Assembly (NCBI GenBank): GCA_900543145.1
Contig: UQPZ01000006.1
Location: forward strand, 73,416 to 105,415
Reading direction: 5' to 3'
Source of the DNA: an uncultured Ruminococcus sp.
GTDB taxonomy: Bacteria > Bacillota > Clostridia > Oscillospirales > Ruminococcaceae
Length of the DNA: 32,000 bases
The translations under genes and the position numbers were made by a program. Position 1 is the stretch's first letter. The number at the start of each line of letters is the position of its first letter. The notes below the pieces were generated by a model. That model had not been told where the DNA came from, did not search any database, and saw nothing but the letters and a program-made list of their open reading frames with translations. Below are positions 7,769 through 9,114 of the stretch, in pieces.

Positions 7769-7798
7769 GAAGTCGGGGTTAGTATTACCCCCGACTTC
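7769..7798 (+). other. Rolling-circle origin stem-loop carrying the CRESS-type nonanucleotide TAGTATTAC
   Basis: Perfect 10-bp stem GAAGTCGGGG (7769-7778) / CCCCGACTTC (7789-7798). The loop is TTAGTATTAC (7779-7788) and the nonanucleotide is at 7780-7788. It is on the same strand as rep and 96 nt upstream of it. Confidence 0.75.
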
Positions 7799-7880
7799 GT
7801 TACAAGTTACAAGGGTAGTGCAAACGGCGTATTTTCGGACTAAAAGTTTGTAACCAATATTCGTTACAACTTCGTTACAA
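7796..7880 (+). repeat. Iterons (GTTACAA / TTCGTTACAA) flanking the origin stem-loop
   Basis: GTTACAA occurs at 7799-7805 and 7806-7812 (tandem, abutting the right stem arm), inverted at 7848-7854, and again at 7863-7869 and 7874-7880. The longer TTCGTTACAA occurs three times (7796, 7860, 7871). The last copy abuts the rep RBS. Confidence 0.7.
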
Positions 7881-7893
7881 AGGTGGTGATTAA

Positions 7894-9114
7894 TTGTCTG
7901 AATTCGTTTGTAAATCAACATTTTGTGTTATAAACAATCCTCGTTATAACATAACCTATAGACACAATGAAACAGGAGAAATAATAAAAGACGAAAACGG
8001 AAAGCCGGAGATTTTAACGCAAGAACCAACGGAATATTACGGCTTTACAGAACAGCAAATATGTGATGATGTATTAAACAAATGGGTTTCTGACGGTGAA
8101 GAACATACAGGAGCAGTATTGTATTGTGTATCTGCTTTAGGACTTGAACACTTGCATTGTGTGTTTGAAAGTAATAAAGCCTATCGCCCTTTAACTGTTT
8201 TAAAACGGTTATTTTCTAAGATACATATTGAGGTCACAAAGGGCAGTAAAAAAGATGTTGAAGATTATATAAATAAGGTGGGAAAATTTGAAGAAAAGGG
8301 CGAAAAGATAATTGCTAAATCTCAGGTTGGAGAAATTATAGGTTGTCAGGGCAAAAGAACTGATTTGATAACCCTTGATGAAATTAAAGAACTTATATCA
8401 GAGGGTCTTACACCTCGTGAAATATTTTTAAAATATCCAAAGGCATTGAAAGAAGAAAAAGCTGTTAACTGGCTTTTTTTTGATAGGCGTTGTCAGGATA
8501 TACCTAGGGTAAGGAACGTTGACGTTTACTGGCTTTGCGGAAGAACAGGCTGCGGAAAATCATATAAATACGTTGAACTTTGCGAAAAGTACGGTGATGA
8601 AAATGTATACTTGGTTTCTGATTATCAACATCCGTTTGATAATTATATAGGTCAAGACGTTGTTGTTTTTGATGAGTTTCGAGGGCAATTCCGCTTTGCT
8701 GATATGCTTATGTATCTGGACAGATACATAAGAGATATAAACGCACGCTATTTTAATAAAACTTGTATCTGGACAAAGGTTTATATAACGTCACCTCTTA
8801 CGCCTTATCATGTATATAACAATAATGAAGGAGAGGATAAAAAAGAACAGTTCTATCGCCGAATAAAAGAAATTGTTCGTTGCTTTAAATATGAGAAAAA
8901 GGACTGCACGGTTTACTTTCAAGCTTCATTGCCCTGTGAATTAGACGGTTGTATAAAAGACATTTACAAAGAATTTAACGATATAGAAACCTATTGTATA
9001 GACAGAGTAAAATATTGCAACGACTATAAAGGTGAGGAAGGTATAAAAGTTACCTATGTGAAAAAAGAGGGTGAACAGATTGAAGAAACATTGACAAACG
9101 GCTTTGCAATATGA
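7894..9114 (+). CDS. rep: Replication initiator: HUH endonuclease plus SF3 helicase, circovirus/CRESS-type Rep (406 aa, TTG start)
   Basis: RBS AGGTGG (7881-7886) lies 7 nt before TTG 7894. Motif I is FCVINNP (PCV2 FTLNNP). Motif II is EHLHCVF (HUH; PCV2 PHLQGF). HIEVTKGSKKDVEDYINKVG matches PCV2 HIEKAKGTDQQNKEYCSKEG, which contains the motif III YxxK. QGKRTDL matches QGQRSDL. Walker A is GRTGCGKS (GPPGCGKS). Walker B is VVVFDEF (VVVIDDF). Motif C is YITS (LITSN). FYRRIKEI matches LYRRITSL. Confidence 0.85.
   Translation: MSEFVCKSTFCVINNPRYNITYRHNETGEIIKDENGKPEILTQEPTEYYGFTEQQICDDVLNKWVSDGEEHTGAVLYCVSALGLEHLHCVFESNKAYRPLTVLKRLFSKIHIEVTKGSKKDVEDYINKVGKFEEKGEKIIAKSQVGEIIGCQGKRTDLITLDEIKELISEGLTPREIFLKYPKALKEEKAVNWLFFDRRCQDIPRVRNVDVYWLCGRTGCGKSYKYVELCEKYGDENVYLVSDYQHPFDNYIGQDVVVFDEFRGQFRFADMLMYLDRYIRDINARYFNKTCIWTKVYITSPLTPYHVYNNNEGEDKKEQFYRRIKEIVRCFKYEKKDCTVYFQASLPCELDGCIKDIYKEFNDIETYCIDRVKYCNDYKGEEGIKVTYVKKEGEQIEETLTNGFAI

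What the first reader, a model, noticed from the sequence alone, without database searches (positions are those of the whole stretch)
7769..9114. Circovirus/CRESS-type Rep and an exact TAGTATTAC stem-loop origin inside a filamentous-phage-like prophage of a Gram-positive bacterium
Seen directly in the sequence:
- There is a perfect 10-bp stem (7769-7778 / 7789-7798) whose 10-nt loop TTAGTATTAC contains TAGTATTAC.
- Two tandem GTTACAA iterons start at the first base after the right stem arm. Three more copies lie before the rep RBS, one of them inverted.
- The downstream 406-aa ORF carries all Rep motifs in order: FCVINNP, HLHCVF (HUH), YINK (YxxK), QGKRTDL, GRTGCGKS, VVVFDEF, YITS and FYRRI.

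Established knowledge: (T/A)AGTATTAC at the apex of a stem-loop flanked by iterons is the origin signature of Circoviridae and Nanoviridae. The motif strings above align one-to-one with PCV2 Rep (FTLNNP, HLQGF, YCSKEG, QGQRSDL, GPPGCGKS, VVVIDDF, ITSN, LYRRIT).

Inference: this element combines an inovirus morphogenesis module (pVIII-like, pIII-like, pI/Zot-like) with a CRESS-type HUH plus SF3 replication module and a tRNA-targeting integrase. That would be a chimeric ssDNA mobile element linking two ssDNA replicon lineages. I cannot tell without a database search whether this exact combination has been described.
Basis: partly seen in the sequence, partly recalled or inferred. Interest (0 to 1): 0.9.

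Follow-up and report, generated by a model that had tools for sequence, protein, structure and literature searches.

The report
Filamentous prophage with circovirus-type replication module

Summary
The window holds a perfect 10-bp stem (7769-7778/7789-7798) with the loop TTAGTATTAC, five GTTACAA iterons, and an intact 406-aa HUH-endonuclease plus SF3-helicase Rep (7894-9114).

All of this lies inside one 8,793-bp element. The element is flanked by 46-nt att repeats made from the 3' part of tRNA-Arg(CCG). It also carries a Zot/pI assembly ATPase, a pVIII-like coat ORF, a pIII-like ORF and a tyrosine integrase.

Ninety-five related loci support a functional origin:
- The hairpin keeps the nonanucleotide while its stem changes by compensatory substitutions (96.8% paired against 52.7% when partners are shuffled).
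- The iteron layout is kept while the iteron sequence changes with the Rep lineage.
- Every Rep relative at about 59% identity or more is linked to Zot wherever the contig allows a test.
- One relative is an 8.2-kb circular contig that carries both modules.

More distant Reps sit in plasmid-like integrative elements without Zot.

The combination is not new. Tisza et al. (2019/2020) described CRESS-Rep/inovirus chimeras. Roux et al. (2019) listed an inovirus "RCR + helicase" protein family (iPF_00203). GenBank holds "bajarodino" inoviruses with this Rep. I rate it a well-documented new member of a known, little-studied kind.

The parts
1897..1942 (.). attL: the displaced 46-nt copy of the 3' part of tRNA-Arg
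   Evidence: Direct repeat of 10690-10735 with 1 mismatch, 8,793 bp apart. GC drops from 0.43-0.45 to 0.30-0.34 just inside it.
2158..2433 (+). 91-aa first gene of the morphogenesis block; candidate ssDNA-binding protein (weak evidence)
   Evidence: Conserved in 24 related loci. No TM segment. Weak pairwise match to the 'RstB-like' protein of bajarodino virus 2, E=0.006. No family hit.
2448..2621 (+). 57-aa pVIII-like major coat candidate
   Evidence: Acidic N-terminus, one 19-aa hydrophobic helix (31-49) and a basic C-terminus RKLTKGKA. Conserved in 30 loci. No profile hit.
2663..4342 (+). 559-aa pIII-like adsorption/minor coat candidate
   Evidence: N-terminal signal/TM segment and C-terminal TM anchor. 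Conserved but fast-evolving in 28 loci. No family hit.
4471..5046 (+). Three small single-TM ORFs (4471-4620, 4634-4867, 4852-5046); minor coat/assembly candidates
   Evidence: Each has one TM segment. They are conserved in 32-34 related loci.
5057..5854 (+). Zot/pI-like morphogenesis ATPase (265 aa)
   Evidence: Pfam Zot E=7.3e-8, 32.6 bits against cutoff 20.3. PHROG 1675 'protein I of M13' E=1.8e-11. 31% identical (E=5e-16) to the pI of the Enterocloster citroniae inovirus, whose particles were shown to be secreted (PMC10061712).
5907..6164 (-). 85-aa single-TM ORF of unknown role
   Evidence: One TM segment. Found only in the window and L002.
6161..6358 (-). Ribbon-helix-helix (Arc-like) repressor candidate
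   Evidence: PHROG 13890 E=4e-23 and PHROG 582 'Arc-like repressor' E=9e-8. Conserved in 31 loci.
6694..7332 (+). SprT-like metalloprotease-family gene, accessory cargo
   Evidence: Pfam SprT-like E=1.4e-11. PHROG 6361 E=4e-30. Present in only 3 related loci.
7769..7798 (+). Plus-strand origin hairpin: 10-bp stem with loop TTAGTATTAC. Predicted nick between T7786 and A7787.
   Evidence: Conserved upstream of rep in 72 of 95 related loci, with compensatory stem changes. The nick position is inferred from circovirus and nanovirus biochemistry.
7799..7880 (+). Iteron field: GTTACAA x2 in tandem abutting the stem (7799-7812), one inverted copy (7848-7854) and two direct copies (7863-7869, 7874-7880)
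   Evidence: The same layout recurs in relatives with lineage-specific iteron sequences.
7894..9114 (+). rep: HUH endonuclease (about 1-150) plus SF3 helicase (about 205-330) plus a variable C-terminal extension
   Evidence: AlphaFold2 model pLDDT 86.8. Foldseek hits Vientovirus Rep at E=3.5e-13 and the PCV2 Rep ATPase at TM 0.82.
9350..9562 (+). 70-aa conserved ORF between rep and int, unknown role
   Evidence: Conserved in 38 related loci. No family hit.
9631..10557 (+). Tyrosine integrase
   Evidence: Pfam Phage_integrase E=2.6e-16. PHROG 1 E=1.3e-36.
10690..10766 (-). tRNA-Arg(CCG); its 3' 46 nt (10690-10735) form attR
   Evidence: ARAGORN, Rfam tRNA 71.8 bits and the att repeat.

Best explanation
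Window 1897-10735 is a single integrated filamentous-phage-like (inovirus-like) prophage of a gut Ruminococcus (Oscillospiraceae, a monoderm). Its replication module is a CRESS/p4M-type cassette.

Proposed cycle:
1. The tyrosine integrase excises the element from the 3' end of tRNA-Arg(CCG), giving an 8.8-kb circular dsDNA.
2. Rep binds the GTTACAA iterons next to the origin hairpin.
3. Rep nicks the + strand inside the loop, at TAGTATT|AC between 7786 and 7787. Tyr125 (YINK) is the nucleophile and His86/His88 (HLH) hold the metal ion.
4. Rep stays linked to the 5' end. Its SF3 helicase domain unwinds the duplex while a host polymerase extends the 3'-OH.
5. After one round Rep cuts and rejoins the regenerated origin, releasing a circular + strand.
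6. The + strand has the same sense as nearly all the genes, as in known inoviruses. It is exported through the membrane by the Zot/pI ATPase and coated with the 57-aa pVIII-like protein. The 559-aa pIII-like protein sits at the tip. No secretin gene is present, and none is needed in a monoderm host.
7. A ribbon-helix-helix repressor probably controls the switch.

Shown here: all sequence features, the homologies, the boundaries, the conservation and covariation of the origin, and the linkage of the modules.
Inferred: the nick position, strand choice, virion formation and regulation.
For: Boundaries
- 46-nt att repeats and a GC drop, and tRNA-Arg.
- Relatives L002 (Ruminococcus sp. Marseille-P6503) and L005 are bounded by the same att, 8,252 and 7,912 bp apart.

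Rep
- Pfam RNA_helicase is above its cutoff.
- phmmer hits the full-length Vientovirus Rep 9pqq at E=3e-8 over residues 44-324.
- The family profile hits PCV2 Rep at E=5e-18 from the HUH motif to the end.
- 23 of 26 homologues hit RNA_helicase and 9 of 26 hit Viral_Rep.
- The catalytic residues are invariant.
- The model and fold search agree.
- The nearest plasmid Rep is p4M RepA, E=3e-16.

Origin
- A hairpin carrying the nonanucleotide lies upstream of rep, on the rep strand, in 72 of 95 related loci.
- There are 40 distinct hairpins. They are 96.8% Watson-Crick paired over 10 pairs, against a mean of 52.7% and a maximum of 61.8% in 1000 partner shuffles. Stem positions 2-8 each show 3-4 pair types.
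- The iteron architecture is conserved while the iteron sequence varies by lineage.

Morphogenesis
- Zot/pI hits.
- 31% identity to the pI of an inovirus that was shown experimentally to be secreted.
- Coat-like and pIII-like TM layouts in canonical inovirus gene order.

Linkage
- All Rep relatives at about 59% identity or more carry the whole module wherever the contig allows a test.
- Zot is found in 47 of the 96 loci counted (95 relatives plus the window), scattered across the Rep tree.
- L085 is a circular contig (127-bp terminal overlap) with both Zot and Rep.
It has Zot, this Rep family, and a TAGTATTAC hairpin 285 nt upstream of rep.
Against: - There is no experimental evidence for excision, ssDNA or virions for this element.
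- I found no attP junction in IMG/VR or in JGI metagenomes.
- The window Rep itself does not reach Pfam Viral_Rep.
- The Zot ORF has no transmembrane segment, unlike canonical pI.
- The coat and pIII assignments rest on size, hydrophobicity layout, gene order and conservation, not on homology.
- The motif C asparagine, which is conserved in CRESS-virus helicases, is Pro/Val/Ile in this family.
Confidence: 0.82

Rival explanations
1. The element is an integrated rolling-circle plasmid of the pCRESS type (Kazlauskas et al. 2019) that never forms virions. In this reading the Zot-like ATPase and the small membrane proteins serve DNA segregation or transfer, in the way FtsK-like ATPases do in other pCRESS elements.
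For: - Kazlauskas et al. classed integrated Rep-encoding elements of Clostridia, 7-12 kb long and inserted in tRNA genes, as plasmids.
- Rep relatives at 35-43% identity sit in elements with no Zot at all. These include serine-recombinase mini-elements, Mob_Pre mobilizable elements, and 3.7-4.7 kb circular Rep+Int episomes.
- The nearest plasmid Rep is p4M.
- There is no homology-based identification of a coat protein.
Against: - The ATPase matches Zot/pI specifically and is above the Pfam cutoff. It resembles the pI of a secreted Enterocloster inovirus.
- The gene order, from a small soluble ORF through a pVIII-like ORF, a large signal-plus-anchor protein and small TM ORFs to pI, is the canonical inovirus block.
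- Related circular genomes have been recovered and filed as inoviruses.
- Tisza et al. reported CRESS-Rep genomes with inovirus capsid genes.
Confidence: 0.12
2. Two unrelated elements lie side by side: an inovirus remnant (about 1943-5900) and a separate integrative Rep plasmid (about 6400-10735).
For: - The region 5900-7700 contains oppositely oriented genes and a cargo gene (SprT-like) that is absent from most relatives.
- GC rises locally to 0.37-0.40.
Against: - Only one att pair exists, and it brackets both blocks.
- Two relatives are bounded by the same att with both blocks inside.
- More than 30 loci keep Zot 2.0-3.2 kb upstream of rep.
- Circular contig L085 contains both blocks.
- An 8,278-bp contig, L106, has its two ends inside the att sequence and spans both blocks.
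Confidence: 0.03
3. The prophage is a decayed, non-functional relic, and the origin and Rep motifs persist only because the insertion is recent.
For: No activity data are available. The pI ORF lacks a TM segment.
Against: - All ORFs are intact.
- The identical Rep occurs on several contigs, and a 90%-identity cluster member occurs on 82 contigs.
- The origin stem shows compensatory evolution and the iterons vary with the Rep lineage, which indicates sustained selection.
Confidence: 0.03

Closest known systems
CRESS-Rep/inovirus chimeric genomes ctbe30 and ctbc27 (Tisza et al., eLife 2020; bioRxiv 10.1101/555375)
   Same: They combine a CRESS-type Rep with inovirus capsid-like genes, ZOT and RstB-like genes. 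They come from gut samples. [quoted passage not shown]
   Different: Those are episomal circular contigs from macaque stool with no defined host or att site. I could not compare sequences because they are not in the collections searched. The window gives a precisely bounded prophage in a named host genus.
Inovirus protein family iPF_00203, 'RCR + helicase' (Roux et al., Nat Microbiol 2019)
   Same: A family of 56 replication proteins from predicted inoviruses with HUH motifs I-III plus S3H Walker A/B/C, annotated Viral_Rep/RNA_helicase and flagged as 'typical of eukaryotic ssDNA viruses'. The IMG/VR relatives found here (L060-L096) are the same kind of prediction.
   Different: The family is mentioned only in a figure legend and a supplementary table, with no origin analysis.
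Bajarodino viruses (GenBank PQ006138 and others; filed under Inoviridae; rodent faeces)
   Same: Circular 5.7-10 kb genomes with Zot and a Rep 29-36% identical to the window Rep, with E-values down to 7e-31. Virus 2 has a TAGTATTAC hairpin 285 nt upstream of rep and its own iterons, TGTCGCA.
   Different: They are distant in sequence. No integrase is annotated in the one record examined (virus 2). I found no paper describing them in the library.
pCRESS1-3 / p4M-like integrated plasmids (Kazlauskas et al., Nat Commun 2019)
   Same: HUH+SF3 Reps in Clostridia, in 7-12 kb elements with a tyrosine integrase, inserted in tRNA genes and flanked by att repeats. p4M RepA is the best plasmid hit, E=3e-16. 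Their own supplementary table lists a Zot/pI gene in the pCRESS2 element HugHat-E1.
   Different: The paper states that none of these elements encode known viral structural proteins and treats them as plasmids. The window element has a full inovirus-like block. The subgroup is unresolved: this Rep has HUH rather than HUQ and YxxK rather than YLxH, and it lacks the motif C Asn.
Circoviridae/Nanoviridae/Redondoviridae Rep and origin
   Same: Same domain architecture and motif order. The profile hits PCV2 Rep at E=5e-18. The fold matches Vientovirus and PCV2 Rep. The nonanucleotide TAGTATTAC is identical, lies in a hairpin loop and is flanked by iterons.
   Different: The host is bacterial. The element is an 8.8-kb genome with a filamentous-phage morphogenesis block, an integrase and no jelly-roll capsid. 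Rep has a 30-aa insertion after motif I and a C-terminal extension of about 70 aa, and it lacks the motif C Asn.
Gram-positive inoviruses (Enterocloster inoviruses, Microbiome 2023; Propionibacterium phage B5; Clostridium CAK1)
   Same: 6.5-8.5 kb prophages flanked by direct repeats, with a short pI, a pVIII-like coat, an RHH regulator and a tyrosine integrase. Secretion of the Enterocloster inovirus particles was demonstrated. The pI is 31% identical to that of the E. citroniae inovirus.
   Different: Their Reps are of other types: Rep_trans in E. bolteae and a phage G4 A-protein-like HUH without helicase in E. citroniae.

Membership tests
HUH-endonuclease + SF3-helicase Rep (CRESS/p4M-type; Pfam Viral_Rep + RNA_helicase) | Nuclease motifs I (uuTuNN), II (HUH) and III (YxxK) in order | tested here: met
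   FCVINNP (N15 nearly invariant), HLH (H86 and H88 invariant or nearly so), YINK (Y125 and K128) in a 26-sequence alignment.
HUH-endonuclease + SF3-helicase Rep (CRESS/p4M-type; Pfam Viral_Rep + RNA_helicase) | Significant profile match of the N-terminal domain to Viral_Rep (PF02407) | tested here: inconclusive
   The window protein has no hit at E<=1. Nine of 26 homologues hit PF02407, best 8.8e-10. The family profile aligns to PCV2 Rep from the HUH motif onward at E=5e-18.
HUH-endonuclease + SF3-helicase Rep (CRESS/p4M-type; Pfam Viral_Rep + RNA_helicase) | SF3 helicase: Walker A, Walker B, motif C, arginine finger | tested here: met
   PF00910 at 28.7 bits against cutoff 21.5. G216/K222, D259-E261, I298-S300 and R322/R323 are conserved. 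Foldseek to the PCV2 ATPase domain gives TM 0.82. Exception: the motif C Asn is replaced by Pro/Val/Ile.
HUH-endonuclease + SF3-helicase Rep (CRESS/p4M-type; Pfam Viral_Rep + RNA_helicase) | Cognate origin: hairpin with an NAGTATTAC-type nonanucleotide in the loop, plus iterons | tested here: met
HUH-endonuclease + SF3-helicase Rep (CRESS/p4M-type; Pfam Viral_Rep + RNA_helicase) | Site-specific nicking and joining at the nonanucleotide | not testable with these tools
   Needs a biochemical assay.
Inovirus-like filamentous phage (Tubulavirales sensu lato) | pI/Zot-family morphogenesis ATPase | tested here: met
   Pfam Zot at 32.6 bits against cutoff 20.3, and PHROG 1675 at E=1.8e-11.
Inovirus-like filamentous phage (Tubulavirales sensu lato) | pI carries 1-2 transmembrane segments (criterion of Roux et al. 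2019) | tested here: not met
   No segment reaches the Kyte-Doolittle threshold in the 265-aa ORF. A conserved 64-aa TM ORF lies immediately upstream.
Inovirus-like filamentous phage (Tubulavirales sensu lato) | Small hydrophobic alpha-helical major coat protein | tested here: inconclusive
   The 57-aa ORF has the classic acidic / TM / basic layout and is conserved in 30 loci. It has no significant family hit.
Inovirus-like filamentous phage (Tubulavirales sensu lato) | Small (5-15 kb) genome with co-oriented genes that can exist as a circle | tested here: met
   The element is 8,793 bp between att sites. Relative L085 is a circular 8.2-kb contig.
Inovirus-like filamentous phage (Tubulavirales sensu lato) | Filamentous virion containing circular ssDNA | not testable with these tools
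   Needs electron microscopy and a nuclease-protection assay.
pCRESS integrated plasmids (Kazlauskas 2019) | HUH+SF3 Rep, tyrosine integrase, att-flanked insertion in a tRNA gene | tested here: met
   The best plasmid relative is p4M.
pCRESS integrated plasmids (Kazlauskas 2019) | No homologues of viral morphogenesis or structural proteins | tested here: not met
   A Zot/pI gene and a coat-like block are present.
pCRESS integrated plasmids (Kazlauskas 2019) | Assignment to one of the groups pCRESS1-9 by phylogeny | not tested
The motifs exclude pCRESS3 (HUQ) and pCRESS4-8 (YLxH).

The most novel reading that the evidence does not exclude
The complete CRESS replication cassette consists of the TAGTATTAC hairpin, flanking iterons and an HUH-SF3 Rep. 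The most novel reading is that this cassette is native to ssDNA-packaging filamentous phages of gut Clostridia as well as to plasmids. Under that reading, bacterial viruses rather than only plasmids could have been the donors, or a continuing reservoir, of the replication module of circo-, nano- and smaco-like eukaryotic viruses. The cassette would move as a unit among at least four kinds of bacterial mobile element, with Rep and iterons co-evolving.
Probability: 0.2. Interest if true: 0.6.

Novelty: new member of a known kind. Interest (0 to 1): 0.38.

Why it matters
The element is a clean, precisely bounded example of a bacterial ssDNA-phage-like element that uses the same replication origin and initiator as circoviruses and nanoviruses. 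A close relative lies in a cultured host: locus L002, in Ruminococcus sp. Marseille-P6503, has a Rep 92% identical to the one here.

- It offers a tractable bacterial system for studying CRESS-type initiation, including iteron specificity, nicking and SF3 loading.
- It bears on the proposal that CRESS-DNA virus replication modules came from bacterial replicons.
- It shows that some elements catalogued as "integrated plasmids" with viral-like Reps carry an inovirus morphogenesis block.
- In practice, faecal viromes will contain CRESS-like rep genes that belong to phages of Clostridia and not to viruses of the animal.

The conceptual point has already been published, so the value lies in documentation and in being testable rather than in discovery.

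Tried and rejected
- A distant-homologue alignment (A1) was too divergent for locus retrieval. A closer set, A2, worked.
- MAFFT misaligned hairpins with different loop lengths. I therefore counted stem pairs in a script, indexing from the loop outward. The selection required at least 5 perfect pairs next to the loop, so pairs 1-5 are biased towards pairing. Pairs 6-10 were not selected for and are still mostly paired.
- I searched IMG/VR and the JGI metagenomes with a degenerate pattern matching all four junction types (attL, attR, attP, attB). This gave no attP and one apparent empty site, L108. L108 has a 100% identical left flank followed by a full tRNA-Arg. Its right flank is about 60% GC and unrelated to the window, so it is probably a chimeric assembly through the tRNA. 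I do not count it as evidence.
- I checked whether the experimentally secreted Enterocloster inoviruses use this Rep. They do not: they use Rep_trans or a G4 A-like protein. Only their pI is related.
- I compared the 91-aa ORF with RstB-like proteins. There was no match to the E. citroniae protein and only E=0.006 to the bajarodino one. The ssDNA-binding role stays a guess.
- PHROG and Pfam scans of the small ORFs and the 559-aa ORF gave nothing significant.
- A search for a paper on 'bajarodino' viruses found none.
- Contamination by a eukaryotic CRESS virus is rejected. The element is flanked by bacterial genes and att repeats, and it uses bacterial start codons and ribosome-binding sites.
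Full report
**1. Observation**

- GAAGTCGGGG (7769-7778) pairs perfectly with CCCCGACTTC (7789-7798) around the loop TTAGTATTAC.
- TAGTATTAC occurs once in the 32-kb window, against 0.23 expected.
- As single-stranded DNA the region folds into this hairpin, at -11 kcal/mol and z = -2.9.
- GTTACAA occurs nine times in the window. Five copies lie within 7799-7880: two in tandem directly after the right arm, one inverted at 7848-7854, and two direct copies at 7863 and 7874, just before the GGTGGTG ribosome-binding site. Three of the copies extend to TTCGTTACAA.
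- The ORF 7894-9114 is open and encodes 406 aa.

**2. What Rep is**

- Pfam RNA_helicase (the SF3 helicase family) matches above its curated cutoff, at 28.7 bits against 21.5. Viral_Rep does not match the window protein itself.
- phmmer against PDB sequences finds only CRESS-virus Reps. One hit is a full-length Rep (9pqq, identified as Vientovirus FB Rep) at E=3e-8 over residues 44-324. The other is PCV2 Rep.
- A profile of 19 family members hits PCV2 Rep at E=5e-18. That alignment runs from the HUH motif through YxxK and the QGxRSDL motif, then Walker A, Walker B, motif C and the arginine finger.
- Of 26 diverse homologues, 23 hit RNA_helicase and 9 hit Viral_Rep, best 8.8e-10.
- The catalytic residues are invariant or nearly invariant: N15, H86, H88, Y125, K128, G216, K222, E261, I298, S300 and R322/R323.
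- An AlphaFold2 model (pLDDT 86.8) matches Vientovirus Rep at E=3.5e-13 and the PCV2 Rep ATPase domain at TM 0.82. AAV Rep, picornavirus 2C and papillomavirus E1 follow.
- Among plasmids the best hit is RepA of Bifidobacterium p4M, E=3e-16. p4M gives its name to the p4M-like (pCRESS1-3) cluster of Kazlauskas et al. 2019.
- This Rep differs from eukaryotic CRESS Reps in three ways. It has a roughly 30-aa beta-hairpin insertion after motif I. It has a variable C-terminal extension of about 70 aa. It lacks the motif C asparagine.

**3. One element, with defined ends**

- A 46-nt direct repeat (1897-1942 and 10690-10735, one mismatch) brackets 8,793 bp.
- The right copy is the 3' part of tRNA-Arg(CCG) at 10690-10766 on the minus strand.
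- GC is 0.30-0.34 over most of the interior, rising to 0.37-0.40 around 6500-8000. The flanks are 0.43-0.45.
- The flanks are host genes. A long thioredoxin-domain-like ORF lies on the left. The large ORFs on the right look like metG, folC and uvrC by their sequences. I did not run a family search on any of these host ORFs.
- The gene order inside is as follows:
  - a 91-aa soluble ORF;
  - a 57-aa ORF with an acidic N-terminus, one hydrophobic helix and a basic C-terminus (pVIII-like);
  - a 559-aa ORF with an N-terminal signal and a C-terminal anchor (pIII-like);
  - three small single-TM ORFs;
  - a 265-aa Zot/pI ATPase (Pfam Zot 32.6 bits against cutoff 20.3; PHROG 'protein I of M13' E=1.8e-11);
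  - on the opposite strand, an 85-aa single-TM ORF (5907-6164) and an RHH/Arc-like repressor;
  - a SprT-like cargo gene;
  - the origin, then rep, then a 70-aa ORF, then a tyrosine integrase.
- The Zot protein is 31% identical (E=5e-16) to the pI of the Enterocloster citroniae inovirus. Particles of that inovirus were shown to be secreted in vitro and in vivo (PMC10061712).

**4. Evidence from relatives**

A Rep-based search, made without reference to Zot, retrieved 58 loci from bacterial genomes and 37 IMG/VR contigs.
- The genome loci come from Ruminococcus, other Oscillospiraceae, Lachnospiraceae and other Clostridia.
- The closest is Ruminococcus sp. Marseille-P6503, with a Rep 92% identical to the one here.
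- The window's exact Rep sequence is also recorded in public collections, and other members of its 90%-identity cluster come from Ruminococcus genomes and MAGs.

*Origin.*
- In 72 of the 95 loci a hairpin with NAGTATTAC at the 3' side of the loop lies upstream of rep on the rep strand.
- Of the 23 loci without it, four have fewer than 150 nt of upstream sequence. Six have a homologous stem with a variant loop: TAGGATTCC, TAATGATTCC, CAGTGTTAC or a shortened loop.
- The 40 distinct hairpins are 96.8% Watson-Crick paired over ten stem positions, and stem positions 2-8 each show three or four different pair types. Shuffling the partners gives 52.7% on average and never more than 61.8% in 1000 trials. 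The five pairs nearest the loop were part of the selection criterion. The outer five were not.
- The iteron layout recurs: two tandem copies abutting the right arm, an inverted copy 40-60 nt further on, and two or more direct copies before the RBS. The iteron sequence changes with lineage: GTTACAA, GTCACAA, TGATACA, GGGGACA, TGTTACA, TGAGAAA, and TGTCGCA in bajarodino virus 2. Geminivirus, nanovirus and circovirus origins show this same behaviour (established knowledge).

*Linkage.*
- Every Rep relative at about 59% identity or more carries the Zot, coat-like, pIII-like and small-TM block wherever the contig reaches far enough, with Zot 2.0-3.2 kb upstream of rep.
- An iterated Zot profile finds Zot in 47 of the 96 loci counted (95 relatives plus the window). 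These include ten or more lineages scattered across a rough neighbour-joining Rep tree.
- Twelve loci with at least 6 kb on both sides have no Zot.
- Examples of the Zot-less elements are a serine-recombinase mini-element, a tyrosine-integrase + Mob_Pre element, a tyrosine-integrase + HTH element, and 3.7-4.7 kb circular Rep+Int episomes.
- The origin-Rep cassette is therefore a module shared between inovirus-like prophages and plasmid-like integrative elements.

*Unity of the element.*
- L002 and L005 are bounded by the same tRNA-Arg att, 8,252 and 7,912 bp apart.
- L085 is a circular contig with a 127-bp terminal overlap, about 8.2 kb long, and contains both Zot and Rep.
- L106 is an 8,278-bp contig whose two ends lie inside the att sequence. 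It spans both blocks.

**5. Mechanism**

The best-supported reading is a temperate filamentous-phage-like element.
1. The integrase excises an 8.8-kb circle.
2. Rep recognises the iterons and nicks TAGTATT|AC in the loop on the + strand, between 7786 and 7787. Tyr125 is the nucleophile and His86/His88 bind the metal.
3. The SF3 domain drives unwinding, and rolling-circle synthesis releases circular + strands.
4. These strands are extruded through the Zot/pI machinery and coated with the 57-aa protein.

The origin lies on the same strand as nearly all the genes, as in known inoviruses. No secretin gene is present, which fits a monoderm host. The nick position, strand choice, virion formation and repressor control are inferences. 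The features, homologies, boundaries, conservation and linkage are shown.

**6. Comparison with what is known**

The combination has been published.
- Tisza et al. [quoted passage not shown] - Roux et al. 2019 list iPF_00203. [quoted passage not shown]
- GenBank holds 'bajarodino' viruses, filed under Inoviridae, with Zot and this Rep family.
- Kazlauskas et al. 2019 described the bacterial relatives as integrated plasmids (pCRESS1-9) and stated that none encode viral structural proteins. Their own supplementary table nevertheless lists a Zot/pI gene in the pCRESS2 element HugHat-E1.
- A 2026 taxonomy commentary on these realms lists the inovirus replication proteins as Rep_trans, HUH, RepL and DDE, and does not mention the SF3 fusion.

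**7. Verdict**

The observation and the interpretation are correct. The element is a new, well-bounded member of a known but little-studied kind. As far as I could find in the library, the systematic demonstration that the TAGTATTAC hairpin and the iteron layout are conserved and co-vary across these bacterial elements has not been published. It is the expected property of such Reps, however, and not a surprise. Interest is moderate at 0.38.

Noticed in passing
window 4798-4835, 6653-6690, 9239-9276: There are three copies of an 18-bp palindrome, TTGAAAGTnnACTTTCAA, followed by an A-run. They lie before the zot block, before the SprT-like gene, and just after rep. They may be operators of the RHH/Arc-like repressor (6161-6358, minus strand) (family D1).
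   Followed up: no
window 1987-2025: A perfect 16-bp inverted repeat with a 7-nt loop lies just inside attL and upstream of the first morphogenesis gene. It is identical in the closest relative, L002, but I did not find it in more distant relatives. It could be a packaging signal, a minus-strand origin or a terminator.
   Followed up: partly
window 6694-7332: A SprT-like (zinc metalloprotease family) gene is carried as cargo between the repressor and the origin. It is present in only 3 of the 95 related loci (L011, L036, L059). Local GC is higher, at 0.37-0.40.
   Followed up: partly
window 4852-5854: The Zot/pI ORF (265 aa) has no transmembrane segment, unlike canonical pI. A conserved 64-aa single-TM ORF ends 11 nt upstream in another frame, so the membrane anchor may be supplied by a separate polypeptide.
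   Followed up: partly
L108 6010-6459 (human gut metagenome contig): The contig has a left flank 100% identical to window 1-1942, followed directly by a complete tRNA-Arg(CCG). It looks like an unoccupied attB. Downstream, however, it is about 60% GC and unrelated to the window, so it is probably an assembly chimera through the tRNA.
   Followed up: yes
L097-L104, L094, L095: Reps 35-43% identical to the window Rep, most of them with the same TAGTATTAC origin, sit in quite different small elements. These are a roughly 3-kb HTH-Rep-serine recombinase unit, a tyrosine integrase + Mob_Pre mobilizable element, and 3.7-4.7 kb circular Rep + integrase + HTH episomes that IMG/VR lists as viral.
   Followed up: partly
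L028, L048, L059, L054, L056, L026 (upstream of rep): Some relatives keep the same GAAGT-type stem but have variant loop sequences: TAGGATTCC, TAATGATTCC, CAGTGTTAC, or a shortened GGATAACC loop. This is natural variation in the presumed nick site.
   Followed up: partly
window 7942-8031 (Rep residues about 17-46) and 8896-9111 (residues about 335-406): Rep has a beta-hairpin insertion between motif I and the first helix. It is present only in the close clade and a few other relatives. Rep also has a variable, structured C-terminal extension beyond the helicase. The function of both is unknown.
   Followed up: no
literature: Kazlauskas et al. 2019, supplementary data (element HugHat-E1, CZAZ01000001 167507..174549): The supplementary annotation table lists a Zot / 'PHA00012 I assembly protein' gene (probability 100) in a pCRESS2 element. 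The text states that no element encodes known viral structural proteins. Some 'integrated plasmids' may therefore be inovirus-like prophages.
   Followed up: partly
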